IMG/VR virus record: IMGVR_UViG_3300037851_000865
Location: 1-29,231 of that record
Strand: one strand, 5' to 3'
From: a virus
DNA: 29,231 nucleotides
Part shown: piece after piece, positions 17,516-26,766 of the stretch
How positions within the stretch are numbered: position 1 is the stretch's first letter
Layout: each line of letters opens with the position of its first letter
Made by a program: the position numbers and the translations under genes
Notes under the pieces: generated by a model
What the model was told of the DNA's origin: nothing
Seen by the model: only the letters and a program-made list of their open reading frames with translations
Database searches by the model: none

Positions 17516-18011
17516 TCACTAACCTCTCGAACTCTTTGCTTGGGATGAGTACCCAAGAGTCTTTGGTTTTACCTGTGCTCTTGTCTTGAAAGTCGACGTT
17601 GAACACCGGTGATTGGCTGTAGGTGCACTCGCTGCGAAGCTTATTCAGGTCGTCAAGTGTCACTCTGTACGAAGACGTAGTAGTGAACTTGTTTTCCATC
17701 CTCCAGCGGTCAGTGCTTCCGTCTGACTTATGCCCGACAAAGGCACCACTTCCCACGTGCGCTCGGCCGCCGATTGCTTCAATACGCTTACGCTCTTGTT
17801 TGCTAGACCGGGTGCGTACTGTCTTGGCAGAGAGCTTTTGGGCAGAACCCTCCGGCGCCTTGACGCTGACGATGTGTTCTCGTCCGAAGAAGCTATCCCA
17901 AGTGATTGGGAGGGTAGTACCACTCTGCCCATCCGTATGGACAGTCAGAGTGGCGTACGTCCCGTTCTCGTTGGTGAAGACTTCCGGTACGACAGTTACC
18001 GAAAGATGCAC
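17493..18011 (-). CDS. Hjc-like PD-(D/E)xK nuclease (putative Holliday junction resolvase)
   Basis: QER...GGR...GSGA....KSD......ENKFT pattern of phage Hjc-type resolvases. Confidence 0.65.
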   Translation of the reverse strand: MHLSVTVVPEVFTNENGTYATLTVHTDGQSGTTLPITWDSFFGREHIVSVKAPEGSAQKLSAKTVRTRSSKQERKRIEAIGGRAHVGSGAFVGHKSDGSTDRWRMENKFTTTSSYRVTLDDLNKLRSECTYSQSPVFNVDFQDKSTGKTKDSWVLIPSKEFERLVNAVDNTR

Positions 18012-22968: not shown

Positions 22969-23979
22969 TCACACTCGCTGATAGCTCCGCCATACATGAA
23001 AAAGCGGAGCATTTGTCATTTGCTGTACGAACTCGTCTTGCTCAAGACTGTCAGGCTGTGCCTCTACTCGATTACTCAAGCGCTCTGGATACTCGACAAT
23101 GTACGTAGAGGTGTTGAGCCGCTCAGCTGCGTCAAGCATGCCTTTGCGTCCAGCACCGTTATTGTCCAAGAATAGATACACCCTGGTGTTCAAGGCTTCA
23201 AGCATCCATTGATGCTCCCATGACAGGTAACTTCCTAGCAGAGCGACCACGTTCTTATACCCGCACTGCCAGGCCCACATGGCTGCCTTGAATCCCTCGA
23301 CCACCAGTATGTAGTTTTCTCGAGGGTCACCGGTTGTCAGCAGCATCTCTGGATACAAGTTGTGCATGTTGTACAAGACCGTGCGCTTCTTCCACCCCTT
23401 TCTGGCGGGCATGTGCCACGCCAAGTACTCATCCTCGTACACCTTGTAGCGAGGCGACTGGTCGTCATAGACGGCTCTACCGCTGACGGCGACAAGGTCT
23501 CCCTTGATGTCGCGGATTGGAAACGTGATTCGTTTCCACCAGCCGTCCCACCCAACGTTAAAGTGCTTGAGAGTCTCCTCCGCGTACTTCGGGAACATGT
23601 AGCCCACGTCGTGCTGGAAAAGACCCAACACCTGCTCATCAATTGGTGGACCGGTGAAGATAGAGTCGGGCTGCACCTGGCGCTCGCCAGGCGGAATATT
23701 CTTTCCGGCTTCGTCAATGAGTAGCCCGTAGTGAAGCTTGATTGTGTTTGCGTCGAGTCCTAGTTCTTGAAGGAATCTACGCAGCGTACCTTTCTCGTGA
23801 CACTGGTGGCAAAAATACACGCCCTTCGTGAGGGACATCGAGAACGAAGGGTTCTTCTCTTCTGTGCCATCCGCCTTTCGGTGGAAAGGACAGATGGCCA
23901 TGATGTTCTCGTTGCCCGAACGACGAACCTTGTTCAGGTATTGTTTTGCCAGCCCGAATATTTCGTTCGAGATATCCAT
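22969..23979 (-). CDS. dnaG: DnaG-type DNA primase
   Basis: CHC2 zinc finger (CPFH...PSFS...FCHQC), RITFPI, SGR, Toprim VVEGF...LDNNGAG...PD. Confidence 0.92.
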   Translation of the reverse strand: MDISNEIFGLAKQYLNKVRRSGNENIMAICPFHRKADGTEEKNPSFSMSLTKGVYFCHQCHEKGTLRRFLQELGLDANTIKLHYGLLIDEAGKNIPPGERQVQPDSIFTGPPIDEQVLGLFQHDVGYMFPKYAEETLKHFNVGWDGWWKRITFPIRDIKGDLVAVSGRAVYDDQSPRYKVYEDEYLAWHMPARKGWKKRTVLYNMHNLYPEMLLTTGDPRENYILVVEGFKAAMWAWQCGYKNVVALLGSYLSWEHQWMLEALNTRVYLFLDNNGAGRKGMLDAAERLNTSTYIVEYPERLSNRVEAQPDSLEQDEFVQQMTNAPLFHVWRSYQRV

Positions 23980-23981
23980 TG

Positions 23982-25406
23982 CTATGGTGCTCGTGGCGGA
24001 ACGAACTGCGCGGCGATTGCTGCTGCTCCTGGATTAGGTCCTCTCAGCGCTCCCGTAGGGTCTACAGGGTCTGTGTTTTGGTGTTTATTTCTTGCTGTCG
24101 ACGCCTTCTTGACGTTCTTGGGGTCACCAGCATCTGCTTGTGCCGCGCTCAACAGCTCATCCATTGAGATAGGGCCTGCGTAACCGAAGTTGGTGGCAGG
24201 AATACCGTGGATACGGAAACCCTCCAGATTGAACTCTCGAGAGCCGCCAATCATCAACGCCAGCGTAGGCACGTGCTTCTCATTGATAACGCGCATCGCC
24301 AGAGTAGCGTCCTGGCCGATTGCGTCCGAGAAGGCAATTTCATCCAGGTTGGCTTCCTTGTTTGTTGCCGCGGCTCGGTTTGCCTGTAGCGTGCAGATGA
24401 CAGGCACGCGTGTCTCCAGAATGGTTTGTCGCAGGTCGCGGCTGATGTTCTGCACACGTGCGTGGTCTTTCTGGCGAGGACCACCGCGAGCGTCAGACAT
24501 TAGGTACATACCGTCGATGAAGCAGATATCTGGTTTGTGCTCTTCAATCTTGCTTCGAAGCCACGATACAGTATCGCCTCTTTCTCCTGCGTCTTTGCCG
24601 GACAAGCACACCATAGACTGCACCGAACGCATCATTTTGACGTACTGCTTGACCTGGTAGAGGGCCTGACGTTCCATCTCAGTCAACTTGCCCTTACGGA
24701 ACTCGCTGTATCGCACACCTGCCAGAATACCGAAGACGCGCATGTAGACGTTGTCTGCTGTCATCTCTTTGGTATAGATGAGGATGCGCTTACCTTGTTC
24801 GAAGGTCCACGCAACATAGTACGCGAGTACCCAGCTCTTCATGGACTTAGGTCTGCCGTAGATAACGATGTAGTCGTCCGGCTGAATGCCGCCGGATTCC
24901 TCCTGCAGAGGGTGCCAGGGATGAGGGCAGACAGACAGATTGTACCCGGCAGCCACCATCTCGTAGTTGTGCATGATGGTGTCTGCCGCCTCATCGGCGA
25001 AGCGGTCCAGCTGCTTGCCGCCGACAAGCCTTTGCAGGTATCCGGTTTGCGTAGCGAGGTAGCCGATTGCTTGCTTGGCGTCTGTTTCCAGAAGCTGCGC
25101 GAAGCGCGTGAGAAGTTGTCGTCCTTCGCTCCTGCATCGATTCTGCCTGACCTCGTGGCACAAAGACTCGACTGTCATGGCCGGGTCATCCACAAGCTGG
25201 AACGTGGGGTACATCTGACGGAGTGCGTACTCTCCGATGATGGCGCCCTGCGTCTCGGGCATGTTGAAGTAGGTTAGCAGGTGATTGAATAGCGTGCGCC
25301 CTTCGGATGTTTGAAAGTCGTCAGGCGTGATGCCCCACTGCAGAGCGGAGTTGATGTTTCCTGTTCGAATGATTCTCGAGATGAGTTGATGGTCCCAGCT
25401 TGACGT
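23982..25406 (-). CDS. dnaB: DnaB-like (SF4) replicative helicase; probable start at ACG 25406 (first ATG at 25262)
   Basis: Walker A GRPKSMKS, KEM, Walker B FIDGMYLM, ISRDL, Q(A)NR, SDAIGQDA. The frame stays open upstream of 25262 as far as an in-frame TAG at 25428-25430; AGGAGG precedes the ACG. Confidence 0.85.
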   Translation of the reverse strand, partial: TSSWDHQLISRIIRTGNINSALQWGITPDDFQTSEGRTLFNHLLTYFNMPETQGAIIGEYALRQMYPTFQLVDDPAMTVESLCHEVRQNRCRSEGRQLLTRFAQLLETDAKQAIGYLATQTGYLQRLVGGKQLDRFADEAADTIMHNYEMVAAGYNLSVCPHPWHPLQEESGGIQPDDYIVIYGRPKSMKSWVLAYYVAWTFEQGKRILIYTKEMTADNVYMRVFGILAGVRYSEFRKGKLTEMERQALYQVKQYVKMMRSVQSMVCLSGKDAGERGDTVSWLRSKIEEHKPDICFIDGMYLMSDARGGPRQKDHARVQNISRDLRQTILETRVPVICTLQANRAAATNKEANLDEIAFSDAIGQDATLAMRVINEKHVPTLALMIGGSREFNLEGFRIHGIPATNFGYAGPISMDELLSAAQADAGDPKNVKKASTARNKHQNTDPVDPTGALRGPNPGAAAIAAQFVPPRAP

Positions 25407-25407
25407 A

Positions 25408-25968
25408 TTAGTACCCTCCTTTCCGGGCTACCTTCTGTAGTTCTTTTACAGTCGGGTTTCCCTGGGTTGCGGTCATATAGCGTGCTTCCAGTTCCGGAAA
25501 GTTGAGTACGTACTGCCCTTTTTCCCAAAAGCGCACAGCAAACAGGTCATAGGCCTGTGCTGCCTTACGTTCGTCTGCAAGGGTTGTAATGTACGTCTGT
25601 ACTCCGTTTATGCGTATGAGTGCCTTCCACTTTTTGGTAGCAGGCCACCACTGCACCCCCTTGTAGTCAGAGGTTGCTTTTCCTACCTTGCGGCGATGCC
25701 TGTTGCTCGTGACAACATCTACGATACGTAGGTTTTCCCTTCGATTATCGAGCCCGTTATGGTTGATGTGGTCCACGATTGTGCCAGGAGCAGCTTGCAG
25801 GATAAATCGATGCATTCGCACGTGTTTGCGCGTGCCTTCGGTACGTATATGCGTCACGGCGTACGTCACCCCGTGTTTGACGTGTACCGACCACGTGTGC
25901 TCGGCAACGCGGTCTACGTCTTGCTCACTTAGCAGCACTGTGTAGTTGCCTATTTGATATGAGCTCAT
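25408..25968 (-). CDS. HNH homing endonuclease with C-terminal AP2 DNA-binding domain
   Basis: MHRFIL...VDHINHNGLDNRRENLR, then S.YKGV.W....KKWKA.I...AA.AYD......NFP. Confidence 0.92.
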   Translation of the reverse strand: MSSYQIGNYTVLLSEQDVDRVAEHTWSVHVKHGVTYAVTHIRTEGTRKHVRMHRFILQAAPGTIVDHINHNGLDNRRENLRIVDVVTSNRHRRKVGKATSDYKGVQWWPATKKWKALIRINGVQTYITTLADERKAAQAYDLFAVRFWEKGQYVLNFPELEARYMTATQGNPTVKELQKVARKGGY

Positions 25969-25992
25969 AGTTATGCTTTCAGTCCAGCTTGC

Positions 25993-26043
25993 TTATCCCC
26001 TTAACCCGTCGGGACTGACCACCCTCCTCTTGAGGAGGTTCAT
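25993..26043 (-). other. 16-codon uORF (MNLLKRRVVSPDGLRG*) in frame with the HNH gene, inside a hairpin-rich leader
   Basis: ATG at 26043, ends GGA-TAA; eight sense codons then lead in frame to the HNH ATG. No SD, so translation is unproven. Confidence 0.3.
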
Positions 26044-26047
26044 GGTC

Positions 26048-26087
26048 AAACAAAAACGCCCACCCCCAACATGTTGGGGACAGGCGC
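26048..26087 (-). terminator. Rho-independent terminator upstream of the HNH/helicase genes
   Basis: CGCCTGT-CCCCAAC-AT-GTTGGGG-GTGGGCG followed by TTTTTGTTT; perfect 16-bp palindrome at 26064-26079. Confidence 0.7.
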
Positions 26088-26111
26088 TCCGGGTGTACCA
26101 AGATGCGGGGC

Positions 26112-26459
26112 TCAGACGGATGGAACGTCTTCGGCGGTACCGAGAAACTCCCCAATACCTCCTGATGGAATGCGCAGTCCTCGTGTGTCCTCTGACGATG
26201 CATCGGGTGTCATGACACTATCTGACTCGAAGTGCGCTCGAGCCACGTCTTCTTCCACAGCTTCGAAGAGCGCACGCATAGCTCGGTTGGTTTTCTCGGA
26301 CCACTGCACGGCCGTAGCATCCACCCAGCCGTGCGTTTGACCTGTTCGAGAGTTGGTGAGGGCTGCGAGCACCTCAATCTTAGGCAGCTCACGAAGACGG
26401 TCGATGCTGAACTTCGCGAGCGATACCTGGTCTGCTTTTAGTCTACCCTGGACGGCCAT
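26112..26459 (-). CDS. Hypothetical protein
   Basis: 115 aa, SD-like AGGTG, fits the operon packing. Confidence 0.55.
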   Translation of the reverse strand: MAVQGRLKADQVSLAKFSIDRLRELPKIEVLAALTNSRTGQTHGWVDATAVQWSEKTNRAMRALFEAVEEDVARAHFESDSVMTPDASSEDTRGLRIPSGGIGEFLGTAEDVPSV

Positions 26460-26766
26460 GTTTCACCTGCAGCGGCGGGGCCTCGATGAAGCTAGCCGCG
26501 TCGTTTACGAGTTCCACAGCTTTCCAGAAGCTTGCTTCACCCGCAAGGTTGATGGCTGCTTCTGTCTGAGGACACTCAACCGTGACGGTGACACTTACTT
26601 TGAGGGAGCCGTAATCGTGGGAGGTGCCCGCGGTCACAGATACCTTAGACGTGGCGTATCCGGCAGCTCTAGCCTGTGCAACTTGCGCGGAGAGCGGGGA
26701 GAAAGGCTCTGACCCTACTTGGTCGGACTTCCACCCGTAGCGCTCCAACGTGACGCTCCAATCCAT
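26443..26766 (-). CDS. Hypothetical protein
   Basis: 107 aa, TAATG coupling; beta-hairpin KVSVT...DYGSLKVSVTVTVEC followed by a helix. Confidence 0.55.
   Translation of the reverse strand: MDWSVTLERYGWKSDQVGSEPFSPLSAQVAQARAAGYATSKVSVTAGTSHDYGSLKVSVTVTVECPQTEAAINLAGEASFWKAVELVNDAASFIEAPPLQVKHGRPG

What the first reader, a model, noticed from the sequence alone, without database searches (positions are those of the whole stretch)
25395..26048. HNH element with structured, mutually complementary flanks at the helicase 5' end: possible new intron-like or bypass element
Seen on the minus strand: (i) AGGAGGGT occurs on both sides of the HNH (26021-26028 and 25413-25420); (ii) CAAGCTGG occurs on both sides (25984-25991 and 25395-25402), read as A-S-W and S-S-W; (iii) the 5' flank CAGTC-ccgac-GGGTT (26003-26017) can pair with AACCC-GACTG (25449-25458) in the HNH tail, which would loop out the ORF; (iv) the HNH tail beyond the AP2 domain has small hairpins (GG-GAAA-CC, CTGTA..TACAG). 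Removing 26013-25405 as RNA would join AGGAGGG-tggtca-GT to G-TCA-AGC-TGG, giving a well-spaced SD plus GTG start in the helicase frame. I could not find group I or group II core motifs. Inference: either an undescribed RNA element that repairs helicase expression, or just scars of the insertion.
Basis: partly seen in the sequence, partly recalled or inferred. Interest (0 to 1): 0.8.

Follow-up and report, generated by a model that had tools for sequence, protein, structure and literature searches.

The report
Homing endonuclease gene at helicase start
A selfish HNH homing-endonuclease gene sits exactly at the start of a phage's replicative helicase gene and has taken over its promoter and start codon; the helicase is most likely restarted from a rare ACG codon just behind the endonuclease's stop codon, with no sign of an intron or ribosome-bypass element.

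Summary
All four sequence features are at the stated coordinates, but none behaves like an RNA element. The two shared 8-mers are borderline versus shuffles (p about 0.045). The 5+5 pairing is chance-level (p about 0.19), absent from the predicted fold, and lost in the only close HNH-bearing relative (L084). Rfam finds no intron or other family.

Comparison with about 125 related phage loci explains the region. The 5' flank is ancestral: a terminator plus a phage-specific promoter box (GGGATAAGC, a motif recurring genome-wide). The HNH-AP2 gene starts at the ATG that is the helicase start in endonuclease-free relatives. Its 3' end carries a strong Shine-Dalgarno, its own TAA stop, and one base later an ACG. 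That ACG aligns with the initiator Met of full-length helicase homologues.

Fourteen related lineages have ATC, ATA, ATT, ACG or CTG at this position. Several retain remnants of a deleted endonuclease as a short upstream ORF.

Best reading: a free-standing homing endonuclease cassette with a built-in translational restart site. It is a new variant of a known kind, of moderate interest. One relative (L084, TCG at that position) remains unexplained. No RNA data could be obtained.

The parts
26112..26459 (-). Upstream gene (115 aa, no family), conserved in synteny in front of the helicase in relatives
   Evidence: ORF list. No Pfam or PHROG hit. Same gene order in L003, L004, L005, L084 and L165-L171.
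26047..26086 (-). Intrinsic terminator of the upstream gene (GC hairpin with palindromic core, then a T-run)
   Evidence: Sequence read. Equivalent hairpin plus T-run in L003, L005 and L084. The simple scan missed it because of its rule for spacing between stem and T-run.
26016..26048 (-). Local hairpin (TGACCA...TGGTCA enclosing CCTCCT/AGGAGG).
   Evidence: Folds. TTGACC and TGGTCAG are shared with endonuclease-free L003 and L002, so the hairpin is not produced by the insertion.
25991..26019 (-).
   Evidence: GG[GC]ATAAG[ACG] occurs 15 times in the 175.8-kb genome, 12 of them on the reverse (-) strand, against 2 for the reversed control. Consensus is GCAA-N16-GGSATAAGAA, mostly 17-50 nt before an SD plus ATG. 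The same box lies 20-40 nt before the helicase start in dozens of relatives.
25408..25968 (-). Free-standing HNH-AP2 homing endonuclease gene (186 aa). Its ATG 25968-25966 occupies the ancestral helicase start position, 22 nt after the promoter box.
   Evidence: Pfam HNH_3 scores 25.3 bits against a cutoff of 24.8; AP2 is sub-threshold. PHROG 99 'HNH endonuclease' at 5e-26. 55% identical homologue at the same site in L084 and a 38-40% homologue in L168. In the alignment (A3) the ATG column equals the helicase ATG of L003/L002.
25415..25420 (-).
   Evidence: It lies 8 nt before the ACG. It is homologous, without gaps, to the SD of HNH-free alleles L004, L005, L166, L129 and L016 (alignment A4). 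Duplex energy with the anti-SD is -12.1 kcal/mol.
25408..25410 (-). TAA stop of the HNH ORF, one base before the helicase restart codon
   Evidence: The same TAA-N-codon layout is in L084. A stop lies 4 nt before the restart codon in L168, L004, L005, L129, L166 and L169-L171.
25404..25406 (-). ACG, the proposed near-cognate initiation codon of the helicase
   Evidence: It aligns with the initiator Met of about 460-aa homologues. The ACG junction is reproduced in an independent metagenome contig carrying a nearby SNP (L172). Fourteen related lineages have ATC/ATA/ATT/ACG/CTG here.
23982..25406 (-). DnaB-like replicative helicase, 474 codons if started at the ACG (automatic calls start at ATG 25262 and give 426 aa)
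   Evidence: Pfam DnaB_C 1.1e-20. PHROG 19 match begins at residue 6 of the long form. Distant phage helicases align from residue 4-14. Codons upstream of 25262 differ from L084 mostly synonymously.
22969..23979 (-). DnaG-type primase immediately downstream (context)
   Evidence: Pfam Zn_ribbon_DnaG, Toprim and DNAG_N.

Best explanation
The element is a free-standing HNH-AP2 homing endonuclease gene (HEG). It was inserted at the very start of the phage's DnaB-like helicase gene, at or within its first three codons.

The HEG has taken over three things from the helicase: its transcription signals (terminator-proximal region and a phage-specific GGGATAAGC promoter box), its short leader, and its original ATG.

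The 3' end of the cassette carries a translational restart module. The module is a strong Shine-Dalgarno inside the last HEG codons, the HEG stop codon, and immediately afterwards a near-cognate start codon followed by helicase codons 2-3. In this window the start codon is ACG at 25406-25404.

Full-length helicase is therefore made by SD-driven initiation at the ACG. Ribosomes terminating one base upstream probably help (termination-reinitiation).

Shown here: the insertion site, its homology to endonuclease-free and endonuclease-deleted alleles, the recurrent near-cognate codon, and coding constraint on the helicase N-terminus. Inferred: actual initiation at the ACG, the contribution of coupling, and endonuclease activity and homing.

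They are not an RNA structure that removes the HEG.
For: (1) Presence/absence polymorphism at one site.
- The gene order (UDG, three small genes, helicase, primase, PolA) is conserved.
- L003 and L002 have promoter box, about 20 nt, then the helicase ATG.
- The window, L084 and L168 have an HNH-AP2 ORF starting at that same ATG column (alignment A3).

(2) The 3' junction is conserved.
- It aligns without gaps from the SD to the helicase in HNH-bearing alleles (window, L084, L168) and HNH-free alleles (L004, L005, L166, L129, L016) (A4).
- L169 carries a 25-codon upstream ORF that is an in-frame internal deletion of an L168-type HNH. Its first 15 residues and last 10 residues match, and it ends 4 nt before an ATC restart codon.
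- L004 is similar.

(3) The codon aligned to the initiator Met of full-length homologues.
- It is ATG in 92 and GTG/TTG in 19 non-identical loci.
- It is ATC, ATA, ATT, ACG or CTG in 14 lineages, and a non-start codon only in L084.
- Such consistent one-base neighbours of ATG are not expected if the codon were not used for initiation.

(4) The 47 helicase codons upstream of ATG 25262 are conserved in protein, and many of their differences from L084 are synonymous (first 60 codons: 21 synonymous against 13 non-synonymous codon differences). Family models also cover them.

(5) The ACG junction recurs in an independent assembly (L172), so it is not an assembly error.

(6) A second, unrelated HNH gene (L144/L145) also sits on the helicase leader, SD and ATG, and is followed by SD, TAG, 2 nt, then ATC.

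(7) HEG and near-cognate states are patchy on the helicase tree. At least 9 changes are needed on 94 rows, and canonical L003 is nested next to window+L084. This fits a mobile element that is gained and lost.

(8) No Rfam family, and no fold or covariation support for an RNA element.
Against: ACG is a very poor initiator in the model bacteria studied (established knowledge, not tested here), and the host is unknown.

In L084, the closest relative, the aligned codon is TCG and the SD is degraded, although the N-terminal codons look intact. So either that allele is defective or the N-terminus can be reached in some other way.

Only about half of the HNH-free near-cognate alleles keep an upstream ORF ending next to the restart codon. 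Termination coupling is therefore not required in general.

Near-cognate alleles do not have significantly stronger SDs than ATG alleles (p = 0.18).
Confidence: 0.72

Rival explanations
1. Intron-like RNA element. The HNH-containing segment would be excised from the transcript, through pairing of its flanks, creating an SD plus GTG or ATG start for the helicase.
For: The helicase lacks a canonical start. Complementary 5+5 segments and two repeated 8-mers exist at the stated coordinates. Joining the HNH ATG directly to helicase codon 2 would recreate the family's N-terminus in the window, L084 and L004.
Against: - No group I or II or any other Rfam match, even at E up to 10 or in five homologous loci.
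- The ORF fills 561 of the roughly 563 nt between the ATG and the ACG, leaving no room for a ribozyme core.
- HNH-free alleles carry inserts of only 40-90 nt with the same junction.
- The exon-intron boundaries that would be required do not fit the group I rules (U before the 5' splice site, G at the intron end) or group II termini. This is read from the sequence plus established rules.
- The pairing is at chance level, absent from the folds and not conserved in L084.
- The 5' partner lies in a promoter spacer.
- L005 has no upstream ATG to splice from.
Confidence: 0.03
2. Recoding: either ribosomes translating the HNH ORF shift +1 at its end to give an HNH-helicase fusion, or ribosomes hop from an upstream take-off codon in the manner of T4 gene 60.
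For: The helicase frame is +1 relative to the upstream ORF in the window, L084, L168, L004, L005, L129, L166 and L169-L171. An SD sits directly before the stop, as in prfB. L084 has no usable start codon at the aligned position.
Against: - The P-site codon TAC cannot re-pair in the +1 frame. There is no shared slippery site across loci (GGG-TGA, GGG-TAG, TAC-TAA).
- In the L144/L114/L031 group the frame relation is different, with the stop 2 nt before the start.
- HNH-free alleles L166, L016 and L123 have no upstream ORF to shift from.
- A hop would have to span about 570 nt, against about 50 nt in gene 60 (bioRxiv 10.1101/2022.08.31.505936). The small ORF at 26043-25993 that could supply a take-off codon is not present in L084.
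- The near-cognate pattern at one exact codon is explained by initiation, not by recoding.
Confidence: 0.05
3. The helicase is made only from ATG 25262, as an N-terminally truncated 426-aa protein. The upstream 47 codons would be an untranslated relic of the HNH insertion.
For: Automatic gene calls use this ATG in the window and in L084. L084 has TCG and a degraded SD at the upstream site.
Against: The upstream codons are conserved as protein, with mostly synonymous change between the window and L084. They match helicase family models from about residue 6. Fourteen lineages keep a one-base neighbour of ATG with an SD at the exact Met position, which would not be maintained in untranslated sequence. 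No SD precedes ATG 25262 (sequence).
Confidence: 0.12
4. The repeated CAAGCTGG next to the promoter box is an operator that mimics the endonuclease's homing site, so that the HNH-AP2 protein represses its own transcription, as I-TevI does in T4.
For: Copy 1 (25991-25984) directly abuts the promoter box. Copy 2 is the helicase start region, which is the expected homing site. The match extends to about 12 of 18 positions with one gap. An exact 8-mer shared between two windows of about 25 nt each is expected at roughly 1%. A precedent is described in PMC2988022.
Against: L084 shows only about 9 of 16 similarity at the same places, and L168 is no better than its HNH-free relative L002. The window's leader is also homologous to that of HNH-free L003. 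Over the whole flanks the repeat count is only borderline.
Confidence: 0.08

Closest known systems
Free-standing HNH homing endonucleases of T4-like phages (MobE between nrdA and nrdB; the Mob/Seg genes)
   Same: A stand-alone HNH gene wedged beside or inside an essential DNA-metabolism gene. It is present or absent among close relatives, is co-transcribed with its neighbours, and has stop and start codons juxtaposed so that translation of neighbours is linked (PMC2988022).
   Different: In T4 the endonuclease is usually the downstream, weakly translated partner, coupled to the host gene. Here the endonuclease is upstream, has captured the host gene's own promoter, leader and ATG, and the essential helicase is the coupled partner starting at a non-AUG codon. 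The enzyme also has an HNH_3 plus AP2 architecture rather than the Mob type.
MobA element with the gene 60 bypass cassette, and mobE inside nrdA of phage Aeh1 ('genes in pieces')
   Same: A mobile endonuclease cassette that lands inside a replication or nucleotide-metabolism gene and brings its own device to preserve host gene function. The endonuclease is progressively lost while the device is retained (bioRxiv 10.1101/2022.08.31.505936). This parallels the HNH-deleted alleles L169, L004 and L170.
   Different: There is no 50-nt coding gap, no matched take-off and landing codons, and no split protein with added tails. The device here is only SD, stop and a near-cognate start, and the helicase remains one polypeptide.
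Near-cognate initiation codons in bacteria (AUU of infC and pcnB; table 11 alternative starts)
   Same: A one-base neighbour of AUG preceded by a good SD is used to start an important protein. AUC, AUA, AUU and CUG seen in relatives are accepted table 11 starts.
   Different: ACG is not among the table 11 start codons. Here the codon class recurs in one gene across many phage lineages and is tied to a mobile element. Regulation by IF3 is not known for this case.
Group I intron-encoded HNH/GIY-YIG endonucleases (I-HmuI, I-TevI)
   Same: An endonuclease ORF interrupting a phage DNA-metabolism gene near a conserved site.
   Different: No ribozyme core, no splice-site features, and the ORF is in a different frame and fills the whole insert.

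Membership tests
Free-standing HNH (HNH_3 + AP2) homing endonuclease gene | HNH catalytic domain | tested here: met
   Pfam PF13392 scores 25.3 bits against a cutoff of 24.8, covering residues 61-83 with the DH..N..N motif. PHROG 99 at 5e-26.
Free-standing HNH (HNH_3 + AP2) homing endonuclease gene | AP2-type DNA-binding domain after the nuclease | tested here: inconclusive
   PF00847 scores 18 bits, below the 33.3 cutoff. Most homologues at 35-44% identity carry PF00847 plus PF13392, and L168's copy is annotated with both.
Free-standing HNH (HNH_3 + AP2) homing endonuclease gene | Presence/absence polymorphism at a fixed site between otherwise syntenic genomes | tested here: met
   Window, L084 and L168 compared with L003, L002, L165 and L167. 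Patchy distribution on the tree.
Free-standing HNH (HNH_3 + AP2) homing endonuclease gene | Not embedded in an intron or intein | tested here: met
   No Rfam hit. The ORF has its own start and stop and is out of frame with the helicase.
Free-standing HNH (HNH_3 + AP2) homing endonuclease gene | Site-specific cleavage of the endonuclease-free allele, and homing | not testable with these tools
   Needs a cleavage assay and mixed infection.
Self-splicing group I / group II intron | Conserved ribozyme core (P3-P9, or domains I-VI) | tested here: not met
   cmscan at E up to 10 on 24900-26500 gave only three chance-level miRNA/editing hits. Nothing at gathering score in the window or in five related loci.
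Self-splicing group I / group II intron | Conserved pairing of intron flanks supported by covariation | tested here: not met
   The pairing is chance-level and absent from the fold. One arm is missing in L084.
T4 gene 60-type translational bypass | Matched take-off and landing codons around a short (about 50 nt) gap, with a stop after take-off, a take-off stem-loop and a nascent-peptide signal | tested here: not met
   The gap would be about 570 nt. The candidate upstream mini-ORF (26043-25993) is not conserved in L084. Features as listed in bioRxiv 10.1101/2022.08.31.505936.
prfB-type programmed +1 frameshift | P-site codon able to re-pair in the +1 frame, followed by a stop, with an SD about 3 nt upstream; conserved among homologues | tested here: not met
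   TAC-TAA (window, L084), GGG-TGA and GGG-TAG (others). There is no common shift site. The frame relation differs in the L144 group.
Translational coupling / termination-reinitiation | Upstream stop within a few nt of the downstream start, with an SD in the upstream ORF's end | tested here: met
   TAA 25410-25408, ACG 25406-25404 and AGGAGG 25420-25415. The same layout occurs in 10 related loci.
Translational coupling / termination-reinitiation | Downstream translation depends on upstream translation | not testable with these tools
   Needs reporter constructs. Some HNH-free alleles lack the upstream ORF, so dependence is not general.

The most novel reading that the evidence does not exclude
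The SD, stop and near-cognate start unit is a portable restart module that travels with HNH endonuclease cassettes aimed at the helicase start codon.

Changing ATG to ACG, ATC, ATA, ATT or CTG would do two jobs at once. It keeps the essential helicase translatable, and it removes the endonuclease's own recognition sequence (which spans the ATG) from the invaded allele. That would make both invaded and 'scar' alleles immune to re-cleavage.

This would explain three observations: two unrelated HNH genes give the same outcome, the codon is always one base away from ATG, and scars keep the odd codon after the endonuclease is lost.
Probability: 0.2. Interest if true: 0.65.

Novelty: new variant of a known kind. 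Interest (0 to 1): 0.45.

Why it matters
The case shows how a selfish endonuclease can land on the first codons of an essential replication gene without killing the phage. It borrows the gene's promoter and start codon, and pays the gene back with a minimal restart signal.

It also provides a natural series within one gene family: intact gene, invaded gene, and gene carrying a deletion scar.

It predicts that a replicative helicase is routinely initiated at ACG, AUC, AUA, AUU or CUG in a whole group of large environmental phages that carry their own RNA polymerase. That matters for gene annotation, because automatic callers truncate these helicases by about 48 residues. It also supplies testable material on non-AUG initiation and on how homing endonucleases avoid cutting their own host genome.

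Tried and rejected
- **Nucleotide search of GenBank phages** with 23900-26500 found nothing. Only distant protein matches were found.
- **Sigma-70 promoter scan** found none in 25200-26500. The TTGACC hexamer after the terminator has no acceptable -10 in the window.
- **Conserved RNA hairpins in the leader.** I first read the conserved TGGTCAG...GATAAG spacing as RNA hairpins. The genome-wide motif analysis showed it is a bipartite promoter-like motif instead, so I dropped that idea and built no covariance model.
- **Stronger SDs compensating for near-cognate starts.** Not supported (p = 0.18).
- **Frameshift, hop, intron and sequencing-error readings** were considered and rejected, as set out under the rival explanations. 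The ACG recurs in an independent contig.
- **Other copies of this HNH.** The homologue search found only one close relative (L084); all others are at or below 44% identity. Junction statistics for this particular HNH lineage therefore rest on three loci.
- **Operator-mimic reading of the CAAGCTGG repeat** is kept only as a low-probability rival.
Full report
**Anatomy (minus strand)**

The window belongs to a 175.8-kb, roughly 94% complete IMG/VR phage record. Reading 26459 down to 22969 gives, in order:
- a 115-aa gene of unknown function (26459-26112);
- a GC-rich terminator hairpin with a T-run (about 26086-26047);
- a TTGACC hexamer (26049-26044) and a local hairpin (26048-26016);
- the box GGGATAAGC (25999-25991);
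- 22 nt later, an ATG that opens a 186-aa HNH_3/AP2 ORF (25968-25408);
- the ORF's TAA stop (25410-25408), one base, then ACG (25406-25404);
- a DnaB_C helicase frame running to 23982, directly followed by a DnaG-type primase.

The helicase frame opens only seven codons before the ACG, after TAG 25430-25428. It has no ATG, GTG or TTG until 25262.

**Check of the observation**

Against dinucleotide-preserving shuffles, two shared 8-mers between the flanks are borderline (4.5% of shuffles). A 5+5 bipartite pairing between the 5' flank and the HNH tail is ordinary (19% of shuffles).

RNAfold of 26048-25395 does not use the proposed long-range pairing. The 5' flank folds on itself, and only a weak contact between the two self-complementary AGCU cores appears in the MFE, not in the centroid. 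The junction regions of the window, L084, L168 and L004 fold no better than shuffled sequence. Rfam gives nothing meaningful at E up to 10 for 24900-26500. It also gives nothing at gathering score for the whole window or for five homologous loci.

**Relatives**

Protein searches found hundreds of helicase homologues of about 455-470 aa. Their first residues (Met, Ala/Ser, Thr/Ser, Trp, Asp/Glu...) align to the window's ACG-TCA-AGC-TGG-GAC. I collected about 160 loci from viral and metagenome contigs plus individual contigs. All share the same synteny: UDG, three small genes, helicase, primase, PolA.

They fall into three states:
- **Endonuclease-free.** L003, L002, L165, L167 and most others have the promoter box, about 20-30 nt, then the helicase ATG.
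- **Endonuclease-bearing.**
  - L084 is the closest relative (helicase 78-79% identical). It has a 55% identical HNH at the same place.
  - L168 has a 38-40% identical HNH_3+AP2 gene there.
  - In alignment A3 the HNH ATG of these three loci falls in the same invariant column as the helicase ATG of L003/L002.
  - The HNH proteins even begin with the same residues 2-3 as their own helicase: Ser-Ser, Ala-Ser and Ala-Thr in the three loci. In L168 this holds at nucleotide level for 7 of 9 bases.
  - The insertion point is therefore at or within the first three helicase codons.
- **Scars.**
  - L169 has, between the same leader ATG and the same SD-stop junction, a 25-codon ORF. Its first 15 residues match the N-terminus, and its last 10 residues the C-terminus, of the L168-type HNH. 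It is an in-frame internal deletion.
  - L004 (19 codons) and L170 are similar.
  - L005, L166, L129, L171 and L016 keep only the junction.
  - From the SD to the helicase body the junction aligns without a gap in eight loci (A4).

**The helicase start**

An HMM of the helicase N-terminus was used to locate the Met position in every locus (refined).
- Among about 125 non-identical loci the codon is ATG in 92 and GTG or TTG in 19.
- It is ATC in L004, L005, L114, L144/145, L168 and L169; ATA in L016/L035/L113, L129 and L170; ATT in L123; ACG in the window and in L031/146; and CTG in L166 and L171.
- Only L084 has a codon (TCG) that is not one base away from ATG.
- Each near-cognate codon is preceded at 5-10 nt by an SD, very strong in the window, L004, L166 and L168 (-12 kcal/mol).
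- Most also have a stop codon of another frame 1-4 nt upstream.

The 47 codons between the ACG and ATG 25262 are under coding constraint. The window and L084 differ there mostly by synonymous changes. Helicase family models and distant phage helicases cover this segment. The ACG junction is reproduced in an independently assembled contig from another sample that carries a nearby SNP (L172).

I conclude that 25406-25404 is the helicase initiation codon, and that automatic calls starting at 25262 truncate the protein.

**The 5' flank**

The motif GG[GC]ATAAG[ACG] occurs 15 times in the genome, 12 on the reverse (-) strand, which carries the helicase cluster. The reversed control occurs 2 times. 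The sites share a GCAA element 16 nt upstream, and most lie 17-50 nt before an SD plus ATG. The same box precedes the helicase start in dozens of relatives. A phage-specific promoter is therefore the natural reading.

- The CAGTC-ccgac-GGGTT segment is the promoter spacer. It would not be part of an RNA started there.
- AGGAGGGT copy 1 lies in a hairpin region that endonuclease-free L003 also has, including AGGAGG.
- AGGAGGGT copy 2 is the restart SD.
- CAAGCTGG copy 2 is helicase codons 2-4.
- The hairpins in the HNH tail lie in sequence that is conserved with L084 as protein, not as RNA.

**Mechanism**

The best-supported model is a free-standing homing endonuclease cassette that captured the helicase's transcription and translation start. 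It restores helicase synthesis through SD-driven initiation at a near-cognate codon placed directly after its own stop.

Ribosomes finishing the HNH ORF are released one base before the ACG, on top of the SD. Reinitiation is therefore likely to contribute. Because some scar alleles have no upstream ORF, coupling cannot be essential.

A second, unrelated HNH gene (L144/145) shows the same logic. It sits on the helicase leader, SD and ATG position of its clade and is followed by SD, TAG, 2 nt, then ATC. On a helicase tree the invaded and near-cognate states need at least nine changes, and canonical L003 is the nearest neighbour of window+L084. That pattern fits repeated gain and loss.

**Comparison with known systems**

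Free-standing HNH/GIY endonucleases of T4-like phages are often translationally linked to neighbours. There the endonuclease is usually the weakly translated downstream partner (PMC2988022). The MobA element brings the gene 60 bypass cassette and, like mobE in Aeh1 nrdA, preserves the invaded gene. In that system the endonuclease is progressively lost while the device stays (bioRxiv 10.1101/2022.08.31.505936).

The present case has the same logic with a simpler device and an unusual site, the start codon itself. I found no description of this arrangement in the searches made, but those searches were narrow. I rate it a new variant of a known kind.

**Unexplained**

L084 has TCG and a weakened SD at the restart site, although its helicase N-terminal codons look intact. 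It may be a recently damaged allele, or it may point to a route into the helicase frame that I have not recognised.

The match between HNH residues 2-3 and helicase residues 2-3 in all three loci is suggestive only (three loci, small residue alphabet). It could reflect how the junctions are rebuilt at each homing event.

Why the restart codon is never ATG is open. Self-immunity against the endonuclease is an attractive but untested idea.

Noticed in passing
whole genome G000; window copy at 25991-25999 (-); also 17726-17734 (-) in the window: A bipartite motif, GCAA-N16-GG(G/C)ATAAGAA, recurs about 15 times, almost always on the reverse (-) strand that carries the helicase cluster and shortly before an SD plus ATG. 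It is probably the promoter class read by the phage's own RNA polymerase/sigma. The same box precedes the helicase in many related phages.
   Followed up: partly
L084:2850-2870: The closest relative with the homologous HNH has TCG, not a near-cognate codon, at the helicase restart position. Its SD is degraded. An ATC lies one base out of frame, right after the HNH stop. How its helicase N-terminus is translated is unexplained.
   Followed up: partly
window 25960-25968 vs 25398-25406; L084:2286-2294 vs 2857-2865; L168:1254-1262 vs about 1741-1749: In all three HNH-AP2-bearing loci the endonuclease begins with the same residues 2-3 as its own helicase (Ser-Ser, Ala-Ser, Ala-Thr). This looks like a short duplication of the helicase start that co-varies between the two copies.
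   Followed up: partly
L169:1400-1490; L004:2961-3024: Short upstream ORFs of 25 and 19 codons are in-frame internal deletions of the HNH gene. They keep its start, its last codons and its stop next to the helicase restart codon.
   Followed up: yes
L144:1504-1986 (and L145): A different HNH endonuclease (160 aa, no similarity to the AP2 type) occupies the same position in another helicase clade. It uses the helicase leader, SD and ATG and is followed by SD, TAG, 2 nt, then ATC.
   Followed up: partly
P0055; L047, L049, L064, L076, L077, L158; L005 PolA gene: Other mobile elements occur in the same replication module of relatives. Examples are an 823-aa helicase with intein domains, helicase matches interrupted near residue 180, and a 1436-aa PolA with faint Hint/intein and weak HNH Pfam hits. 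HNH-AP2 copies also lie downstream of the helicase in L014 and L124.
   Followed up: no
window 25262-25406 and protein P0001/P0121: Public gene calls truncate both genes. The helicase is called from ATG 25262 (426 aa instead of 474). The HNH is called as 135 or 176 aa instead of 186 aa, although the N-terminal 51 residues are conserved with L084.
   Followed up: yes
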